In this document: positions 16,750 to 18,920 of the stretch, in pieces
Position numbering within the stretch: position 1 is the first letter of the stretch
Layout: each line of letters begins with the position of its first letter
Source: Zootoca vivipara
Taxonomy: Eukaryota
DNA length: 64,000 nucleotides
Direction: 5' to 3'
NCBI RefSeq assembly: GCF_963506605.1
Contig: NC_083276.1
Span: 1,302,001-1,366,000, forward strand
Program-made: the position numbers and the translations under genes
Notes under the pieces: generated by a model
Seen by the model: the letters and a program-made list of their open reading frames with translations, nothing else
What the model was told of the DNA's origin: nothing
Databases searched by the model: none

Positions 16750-18920
16750 GAGGGCGGGAGAGCCGCGAGGAGGTCAAAGGGGGCCGATAAATGCAGTAAA
16801 CAAATGCAATGAAATGCAGCCTTTGTTGTCCTCATTTTCTCTCCCTGGGAGGCGGCCTTGGAGGGAGCAGCCCCCGCCTCCTCTCAGCCTGGCCTACCTC
16901 GCAGGGCTGTTGGGGTTGTGGCTGTTGCGGGGTCCCTCTTCCTCGCAGCCCGCCTCCCCCCTGCGAGGGACGGAGAGCGAAGGACCCCCCCACGGCACTC
17001 TCCCCTGGGGGGCGGGGCTGAGGGGGCGGCTCACCTGAGTCACGTGGCTGCCGTCCGGTCGGGAGAGGGGCGGGGGCGGCGACCTCCGCAGGCTCCTCGC
17101 AGCCACAACAACACAGGCAGAGGAGGAGGAGGAGGAGGAAGGGGAGGAGTGAGGGAGAATGCGTCACTTCCGGCGCCCGCAGACTCCGCCCCTGAGGAAA
17201 GCTGGGTGGATTCCGGCCCTGACTCGCGGGGTAACACCCGCCCCCCACACAAATGCCCATAACGGCTTTTATTTCCTGGCATCTGTATGCATGCATGTAT
17301 CTGTGTATATATACGTATGACGTGTCCCCGCCCCCCCATCCCGTTTCTTGAGGCGAGGACTACGACTCCCAGCGCGCCCCGCGCGGAGGAGGAGTCCGTC
17401 CGTACCACGTGACCGCCGCTCTTCTCCTCCTCCTCCTCCTCCTCCTCCGACTGCGCTGCTGTTGCTGCTGCCGCGCCTTGCGTGTCCGTCAGCGCAGGCG
17501 CAGTGGGCGCGGCCTCGGCAGGCTGCCTGAGGCGGCGTCTCGGCGGAGCGCAGGAGGAGGAGGAGGAGGCGGCGGCTGAGGCGAGGCTGAGGCGGCGGCG
17601 GCGGCGCTGGGGACGCGTTTCCCTGGAGACGGCGATGCTCCCCTGCGCGGGGCCCGGGGGCGGCGGCGGCGGCGGCCTGGGGTCGGTCTGGCGTCTGAGC
17701 CGGGCGAGGCCCCGTCGGGGGTCATGGCCAGAGAGGAGCCCGAGGGCGGCGGCGCTGAGGCGGAGAGGCCTGGCCGTGAGGCGCCGGGCGGCGGCGGCGA
17801 CTGCTCTTCTTCCTGCCGCTCTTCCCCTTCGCCGCCGCCTCCCGCCGAGGGCCTCCGCTTCGGCCTGGTCCCCGCGGAGCTCCACGCGCGGCTGCTGGAC
17901 CAGCGGGACTACCGGGGCCGCGTGGGGGCGATGGGGCAGCTGAAGCGGGTGCTGGGCGAGGCGCCGGCCGCGTCCCTGGCCTGCCTGCCGGCGCCGAGCC
18001 TGCTGGGCCTGCTGAGCCTCCTGCGGGCGCTGCTGGACGACTCCAACTTCAAGGTGGCCCTGGGCGCCCTGGAGGCGCTGCGCCTGCTGGCCGCCCGCCT
18101 GGGCCCCGCCGCCGGCTCCCGCGCCCGCCTGGAGCCGCTGGTGTCGGCGGCGGCCAAGGTGCTGGGCGACGCCAAGCTGGCCGTGCGCCAGGAGTACCGG
18201 CAGCTCTTCCTGGCGCTGATGCGCGCGGCGGGGCCGCAGCCCGTGCTGGACCTGCTGCTGCGCCCCGAGCACCTGCGCCACCGCAACGCGCGCGTCCGCG
18301 AGGTGGTGCTGGCCATCTCGGTGGCGGCGCTGCTCACCTTCCCCTCCGAGGACTTCGAGCTGCCGGCCCTGGCCGCCGCGCTGGCCCCCGCGCTGGCCGA
18401 CGCCAAGCGCCGCGTGCGCCACGCCGCCCTGGAGGCCTTCGCCGTGCTCGCCTCGGCGCTGGGCCCGTCGCGCGCGGGGACCCTCCTGGAGGCCGTGGAC
18501 GCCGTGGAGCTGCGCGGCGACGGCGAGGGCGTGCTGGGCGCCGTGCAGGCGCGGCTCGCCAGGAAGACGCTGCCCCGGCTCACCGAGAACTGGTTCGTCG
18601 AGTACGCCGTGCCGCTGCCCGACTCGCCCCACGCCGGCGGGCGGGCCGCCCCCTGGCCCCGCGGCGCCGACACGGACTGGCTGCTCGAGGGCAACCGCAT
18701 CCAGAGCGCGCACAGCGGATCGGCCGGAGACAGCGCCCTGGCACCCTTCGCCGAGCAGGGCGGCGGCTGCCCCAGGAGGGTCCTCAGCGCCGGGAAGGGG
18801 AAACTGCCCTGGGAGAGCGACAGGCCCCCCGCTGGACGCGGATGCTGCTTCGCCAAGGCCAGCGACGCTGCCACGGTGAGTCCCTGCCTCCGCTTCATCG
18901 GGTGCCTTCCGGGCAGTTGG
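16750..18920. promoter_or_regulatory. CpG island / bidirectional promoter of KLHL28 and TOGARAM1
   Basis: Very high GC and CpG density. Motifs: E-boxes CACGTG at 17041 and 17406, ETS ACTTCCGG at ~17166, ZNF143/THAP11-type ACTACGACTCCCA at 17359-17371, NRF1 GCGCAGGCGC at 17492-17501, X-box-like GTTTCCCTGGAGAC at 17617-17630. Confidence 0.88.
17035..17170 (-). other. KLHL28: Probable non-coding first exon of KLHL28
   Basis: Minus-strand donor CAG|GTGAG with the exon ending at 17035 inside the CpG island. The coding exon starts exactly at the ATG, so an upstream UTR exon is required. The 5' boundary is approximate. Confidence 0.65.

What the first reader, a model, noticed from the sequence alone, without database searches (positions are those of the whole stretch)
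17577..17900. TOGARAM1 appears to have lost its N-terminal TOG1 domain
Seen: the frame has an in-frame TGA at 17577-17579 and its first ATG at 17724 (strong Kozak gtcATGg). After only ~43 low-complexity residues it enters LRFGLVPAELHARLLDQRDY, the start of TOG2. Exon 1 encodes 384 aa, and the KLHL28 first exon is only ~550 bp upstream, leaving no room for TOG1. Established (recalled): mammalian Crescerin-1 has roughly 340 residues including TOG1 before this point in the same exon. Inference: this is a natural three-TOG variant, informative about whether TOG1 is dispensable for ciliary-tip function.
Basis: partly seen in the sequence, partly recalled or inferred. Interest (0 to 1): 0.7.

Follow-up and report, generated by a model that had tools for sequence, protein, structure and literature searches.

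The report
Reptile cilia protein shed first domain
This lizard's intact gene for the cilia protein TOGARAM1 lacks the first of its four microtubule-regulator domains, as do its snake, lizard, bird, frog and teleost counterparts; the form is already published for zebrafish, so what is new is mainly that the domain was likely lost several times by internal deletion.

Summary
TOGARAM1 here (a lacertid, 96% identical to Podarcis) is an intact, transcribed 22-exon, 1521-aa gene that starts 43 disordered residues before TOG2. No TOG1 was found in the window or the genome, while TOG2 was found by the same search. It is not special to this lizard: 0 of 28 squamate entries, the tuatara, the alligator, 59 bird entries, 3 frogs and the teleosts checked carry TOG1. 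Turtles keep HEAT repeats C-F and some birds keep fragments. Full TOG1 is in mammals, a caecilian, lungfish, sturgeons, bichir, sharks, lamprey, invertebrates and a choanoflagellate, so it is ancestral, not a mammalian gain. The promoter and 5' UTR are collinear with tuatara, so TOG1 was most likely cut out internally. The TOG2-3-4 form is published for zebrafish, and TOG1 is known to lack polymerisation and rescue activity in vitro. I did not find the repeated vertebrate losses in print (5 searches). TOG1 is 89-96% conserved among mammals, so 'dispensable' holds per lineage only. Verdict: real, new member of a known kind, modest interest.

The parts
13208..14110 (-). First coding exon of the head-to-head neighbour (BTB-kelch gene, KLHL28 by recall); acceptor AG directly before its ATG at 14110
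   Evidence: gene name recalled
17035..17170 (-). Probable non-coding first exon of the neighbour: donor CAG|GTGAG at 17035; 5' end not determined
   Evidence: inferred from the consensus, not RNA-confirmed
17150..17540 (.). Bidirectional CpG-island promoter with motifs at 17162, 17359, 17406 and 17492 (ETS/CRE-, ZNF143-, E-box- and NRF1-like; labels recalled); partly collinear with the tuatara upstream region
   Evidence: no RNA depth at 17272-17552 in 3 of 3 RNA runs, at low depth
17577..17579 (+). In-frame TGA closing the TOGARAM1 frame upstream
17615..17723 (+). 5' UTR stretch whose translations match the in-frame upstream extensions of tuatara and turtle models; the older amniote first ATG would lie near 17676-17690 and is absent here
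   Evidence: position of the lost ATG is inferred
17635..17943 (+). Out-of-frame upstream ATG and 102-codon ORF overlapping the start
   Evidence: inclusion in the mRNA not shown
17724..17852 (+). Start codon and 43-aa disordered leader, in place of the ~340-aa TOG1-bearing N-terminus
17853..18707 (+). TOG2 domain with its C-terminal extension; key tubulin- and ARMC9-face residues kept or conservatively changed
17724..18875 (+). Coding part of exon 1 (384 codons), donor GT at 18876
21955..22006 (+). Exon 2; acceptor RNA-supported
34245..34398 (+). Exon encoding the start of TOG3 with the HEAT-A loop tryptophan
39515..39707 (+). Exon encoding the start of TOG4 with the HEAT-A loop phenylalanine
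17724..42297 (+). Whole TOGARAM1 coding span: 22 exons, 1521 aa, open to the stop at 42295-42297
   Evidence: 1465 identities to the 1519-aa Podarcis raffonei protein, which guided the model

Best explanation
This is an intact, transcribed TOGARAM1 gene with only TOG2, TOG3 and TOG4; its ancestral TOG1 was likely removed by in-frame deletion inside exon 1 before lizards and snakes diversified, and the protein is predicted to work at the ciliary tip as usual. Shown: no TOG1 in window or genome; intact 1521-aa frame; TOG2 fold and key residues kept; the same short 'MAREE'-type start across squamates; TOG1 ancestral. Inferred: (1) internal deletion rather than a moved promoter, from collinear promoter/UTR and from nested in-frame remnants in turtles, alligator and birds; (2) the lizard start is the second methionine of the older amniote N-terminus (about 65%); (3) separate losses in lepidosaurs, archosaurs, frogs and teleost-side fishes; (4) function by transfer from mammalian work: TOG2 binds ARMC9, linker plus TOG3/4 bind and rescue microtubules, and TOG1 is needed for neither, so its loss was tolerated.
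For: Absence: tblastn of mammal and turtle N-termini on the window gave only low-complexity noise. In the genome the turtle TOG1 part scored best E 0.7; rat TOG1+TOG2 matched only at query 249-527, at the window's TOG2, E 3e-88. A TOG1 profile found nothing in six frames of 16600-17852. No hidden gap: two contigs of a DNA run from another study overhang the 146-base skipped repeat by 41 and 138 bases, about one k-mer of overlap (adjacency inferred). Distribution: the TOG1 profile hit 0 of 28 squamate entries (2 are N-terminally incomplete), 0 of 1 tuatara, 0 of 1 alligator, 0 of 59 named bird entries, and 25 of 30 turtle entries, mostly from position 86 of 217. It hit 0 of 3 frogs and none of the 4 teleosts, whose leaders are 0-30 aa. 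Full TOG1: caecilian, chimaera, bichir, lamprey, amphioxus, molluscs, brachiopod; sharks, rays, sturgeons, lungfish; nematode, mite, choanoflagellate, a Picozoa-linked cluster; 95 of 140 representatives with an intact TOG2 start. Internal deletion: tuatara upstream peptides chain collinearly on 17153-17656, 0 of 200 shuffles; the turtle pre-start aligns in register with the lizard start, 3 of 2000 shuffles; the turtle model keeps an N-terminal helix plus HEAT C-F; 5 of 11 birds keep significant fragments. Function: TOG2 model TM 0.94 to 5DN7; key residues; an ARMC9 family match in the genome; PMC4642858 and PMC12170345 passages.
Against: The collinearity test was significant for 1 of 3 queries; both turtle queries failed (101 and 55 of 200), and tblastn of seven upstream extensions found nothing significant. 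The turtle alignment rests on a GGC/CGG-repeat stretch. No squamate leader shows significant likeness to the turtle head. No DNA of other reptiles could be aligned. Tuatara and alligator are one model each, and GC-rich first exons are often mis-modelled. RNA depth is about 2-5 reads and the start site falls in or near a skipped repeat (17541-17686). No single contig is shown spanning the repeat. Function in lizard cells is untested.
Confidence: 0.85

Rival explanations
1. TOG1 was lost by 5' truncation: a new start inside the TOG1-TOG2 linker, with the abandoned TOG1 sequence later decaying as UTR.
For: The 43-aa leader has no significant match to the turtle head or core; the ancestral first Met is absent; two turtle collinearity tests failed.
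Against: A tuatara-matching UTR anchor lies only about 100 nt upstream of the ATG, similar to its distance from the start in tuatara and turtle models. Tuatara and alligator keep the old N-terminal head joined almost directly to TOG2.
Confidence: 0.1
2. TOG1 is present but hidden by a collapsed GC-rich assembly or lies in an unseen upstream exon.
For: The region is 76-79% GC with triplet repeats; the read tool skips 17541-17686; RNA depth is low.
Against: Genome searches were negative with a working positive control; independent contigs leave no room; 18 squamate species from separate assemblies share the short start; RNA covers the bases just upstream of the ATG.
Confidence: 0.02
3. TOG1 is a mammal-specific gain and the lizard shows the ancestral state.
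For: Zebrafish, frogs, birds and squamates all lack it.
Against: Full TOG1 at the same position in caecilian, lungfish, sharks, lamprey, invertebrates and a choanoflagellate; C. elegans CHE-12 TOG1 aligned in PMC4642858 Fig. S1.
Confidence: 0.01
4. On the cause (compatible with the best explanation): GC-biased mutation in the CpG-island exon eroded a weakly constrained TOG1, with no change in ciliary biology.
For: The Gly/Ala/Arg/Pro share of TOG2 is 0.36-0.51 in squamates and 0.28-0.50 in birds, against 0.24-0.26 in turtles and about 0.20 in mammals.
Against: Frogs (0.19-0.20) and teleosts (0.21-0.26) lost TOG1 without that shift. TOG1 is 89-96% conserved in mammals, so it is not weakly constrained there.
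Confidence: 0.35

Closest known systems
Zebrafish togaram1 (bioRxiv 10.1101/817213; section 8 read)
   Same: Single N-terminal TOG corresponding to mammalian TOG2 plus TOG3/4; its CRISPR F0 mutants give ciliopathy phenotypes, so a three-TOG protein is functional in cilia.
   Different: An independent loss in fishes: bichir and sturgeons keep TOG1. The paper section does not discuss direction of change or other vertebrates.
Mammalian TOGARAM1/Crescerin1/FAM179B (PMC4642858; PDB 5DN7)
   Same: Orthologue; TOG2 57% identical to rat, model TM 0.94 to 5DN7; TOG3/4 loop aromatics kept.
   Different: Has a 344-aa N-terminus with six-HEAT TOG1; the lizard has 43 disordered residues.
Turtle TOGARAM1
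   Same: Same exon and head region; closest relative with TOG1 sequence.
   Different: Keeps HEAT C-F and one N-terminal helix, lacking most of A-B.
TOGARAM2/Crescerin2/FAM179A
   Same: A family member with fewer TOG domains.
   Different: Has only TOG3/4-like domains; the lizard gene keeps TOG2.

Membership tests
TOGARAM1 / Crescerin1 subfamily | Contains a domain similar to FAM179B TOG1 or TOG2 (definition in PMC4642858) | tested here: met
   TOG2:
TOGARAM1 / Crescerin1 subfamily | C-terminal TOG3-TOG4 pair after a long linker, with HEAT-A loop aromatics | tested here: met
TOGARAM1 / Crescerin1 subfamily | TOG2 tubulin-face residues (mouse Y364, K365, N406, K447, K481, R484, S521, R526) | tested here: met
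   rat numbering: Y, R, N, K, R, R, A, R; five identical, two K-to-R, one S-to-A
TOGARAM1 / Crescerin1 subfamily | Ciliary-tip localisation, ARMC9 binding, microtubule rescue | not testable with these tools
   Only the presence of an ARMC9 family match in the genome was checked
Four-TOG (mammal-type) TOGARAM1 | Six-HEAT TOG1 before TOG2 | tested here: not met
Three-TOG (zebrafish-type) TOGARAM1 | TOG2, TOG3, TOG4 only, sole full orthologue in the genome | tested here: met
   one strong TOG2 match in the genome
TOGARAM2 / Crescerin2 | Only TOG3/4-like domains | tested here: not met
   TOG2 present

The most novel reading that the evidence does not exclude
TOG1 is a non-tubulin-binding module with its own partner or regulatory job, held under strong selection in mammals and sharks but released at least four times in vertebrates (lepidosaurs, archosaurs, frogs, teleost-side fishes), with turtles caught half-way; a gene or ciliary trait co-lost in exactly these lineages would reveal what TOG1 does.
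Probability: 0.25. Interest if true: 0.6.

Novelty: new member of a known kind. Interest (0 to 1): 0.3.

Why it matters
TOG1 is the one TOGARAM1 domain for which the passages I read assign no activity. Repeated natural losses show that vertebrate cilia can be built without it, give a set of lineages for co-loss screens, and warn that zebrafish, frog, chicken and lizard models cannot test human TOG1 variants. Its high conservation in mammals says it should not be assumed dispensable in people. The lizard case alone adds little beyond the zebrafish precedent.

Tried and rejected
tblastn of mammal, turtle, bird and alligator N-termini on the window: only low-complexity noise (output partly cut). 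tblastn of seven upstream-extended models on 17000-17852: nothing significant. First collinearity script timed out with no output; rerun with other word length, threshold and a chain penalty, significant for tuatara only. No indexed run holding the stretch is on record as RNA; three raw RNA runs of the same species label were laid instead. The wide lay was swamped by repeats and showed no junction for the neighbour's first exon. Pfam has no family that marks TOG1, so I built my own profile from 12 sequences; those 12 score high by construction, while turtles, sharks, sturgeons and lungfish were not in it. The turtle model used an alignment of full-TOG1 homologues and may be biased towards folding. 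Paper search with reptile terms was uninformative: none of the 25 listed papers held TOGARAM1. No earlier scan finding. Rfam: 0 matches in the window. Left out's squamate set as N-terminally incomplete: Lerista and Anolis carolinensis; the bowfin entry is marked partial and is not counted as a loss.

Full report
Observation. Every sequence claim checks out: TGA at 17577-17579 in frame, first in-frame ATG at 17724 in GTCATGG, 43 residues before LRFGLV, 384 codons to 18875. RNA reads in 2 of 2 runs splice 18875 to 21955. Residues 42-328 match mouse Crescerin1 TOG2, 5DN7; the model has a disordered leader and matches 5DN7 at TM 0.94. The closest proteins are Podarcis TOGARAM1. A gene model guided by the P. 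raffonei protein gives 22 exons and 1521 aa with no internal stop and 1465 identities, so this is not a pseudogene. The TOG3 and TOG4 loop aromatics and the TOG2 surface residues are kept or conservatively changed.

Is TOG1 hidden? No trace in the window. In the genome the turtle TOG1 part scores at best E 0.7. Rat TOG1+TOG2 matches only over TOG2 at this locus, E 3e-88, a positive control; these searches score only first-look candidates. In a DNA run of another study, two contigs flank the 146-base repeat that the tool skips and overhang it by 41 and 138 bases. I infer they are adjacent, leaving no room for about 650 coding bases. Sense RNA reads cover the bases just upstream of the ATG; none lie at 17272-17552 in 3 of 3 runs, at low depth.

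Distribution. I built a 217-position TOG1 profile from 12 full sequences. Among the 120 proteins listed it hit 0 of 28 squamate entries (two N-terminally incomplete), 0 of 1 tuatara, 0 of 1 alligator, 0 of 59 named bird entries, 0 of 1 unnamed entry, and 25 of 30 turtle entries. The five turtle misses have an unrelated or short modelled start. Most turtle hits begin at position 86, that is HEAT C onward; four Gopherus models begin at 61. Squamate leaders are 10-74 aa, mostly starting MARE, in lacertids, snakes, a skink, a cordylid, an amphisbaenian, an anguid, iguanians and a gecko, so the loss predates their split. Three frogs and four teleosts also lack TOG1. Full TOG1 is present in caecilian, chimaera, bichir, lamprey, amphioxus, molluscs and a brachiopod, in sharks, rays, sturgeons and lungfish, and in a nematode, a mite, a choanoflagellate and a Picozoa-linked cluster. 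Of 140 representatives with an intact TOG2 start, 95 have it (many others may be fragments). TOG1 is therefore ancestral. On the accepted tree (recalled; turtles sister to archosaurs) it was lost separately in lepidosaurs, archosaurs, frogs and teleost-side fishes. Salamanders, coelacanth and gar were not sampled.

Mechanism of loss (inferred). Sauropsids form a graded series. Turtles keep the head, one helix and HEAT C-F. Five of 11 birds keep fragments that beat all 500 shuffles against the turtle core; alligator and tuatara keep the head joined almost directly to TOG2. The tuatara model runs in frame through its promoter region, and its peptides chain collinearly on window 17153-17656 (0 of 200 shuffles). 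A turtle upstream extension aligns so that the lizard ATG falls on the second methionine of the turtle head (3 of 2000 shuffles). Against this: two turtle queries failed, one search found nothing, and no squamate leader matches the turtle head. I conclude that TOG1 was deleted inside exon 1 with the promoter left in place, and that the first ATG was probably lost as well.

How it works (transferred, untested in lizards). PMC4642858 (passages, sections 6 and 13, supplement part 1 of 2; Fig. 1A not visible and it may show species lacking TOG1): TOG1 is the least conserved domain, does not promote polymerisation, and several family members have fewer than four TOGs. PMC12170345 (passages): TOG1 and TOG2 can be deleted without losing rescue; ARMC9 binds TOG2. 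bioRxiv 10.1101/817213 (passages and section 8; supplement not seen): zebrafish togaram1 has only TOG2-4 and its loss gives ciliopathy phenotypes. PMC11541697 and bioRxiv 10.64898/2026.02.23.707544 (passages) added nothing on TOG1 loss. An ARMC9 family match exists in this genome. So the lizard protein should keep the mapped activities. Yet TOG1 is 89-96% identical between rat and three other mammals, against 92-96% for TOG2, and 67-77% among cartilaginous fishes, so it does something there. GC-driven amino-acid drift accompanies the loss in squamates and birds but not in frogs or teleosts.

Novelty. The architecture is known from zebrafish and sits in database models of squamates. Five paper searches (uninformative; open-licence library only) showed no account of the reptile, bird and frog losses or the turtle half-domain. 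Verdict: real, a new member of a known kind, interest 0.3.

Noticed in passing
window 17635-17943 (+): Out-of-frame upstream ATG opening a 102-codon ORF that overlaps the start; it lies in the UTR stretch that matches tuatara and turtle translations, so it may be a conserved translational brake. Not shown to be in the mRNA.
   Followed up: partly
window 17744 and 17786: In-frame GGC-repeat length variants (+3, +6) in the leader in other individuals' DNA and RNA, consistent with a loosely constrained leader.
   Followed up: no
turtle proteins, e.g. P0049 residues 34-217: Turtles keep a four-HEAT half TOG1, 60% identical to rat over 130 aligned residues and predicted to fold: retention of the half that lacks the HEAT-A loop hints at a non-tubulin role.
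   Followed up: partly
P0244 (Phasianus): The TOG2 HEAT-A loop tyrosine, aromatic in all other rows of the alignment, is glycine in this pheasant entry; real change or model error not checked.
   Followed up: no
P0038 (tuatara), P0004 (Podarcis muralis): Some database models extend the N-terminus by translating promoter and UTR sequence, giving misleading protein lengths.
   Followed up: yes
window 47500-48700: A second GC-rich, promoter-like stretch downstream of TOGARAM1 (long GC-rich ORFs on both strands); no Rfam match in the window. Not annotated.
   Followed up: no
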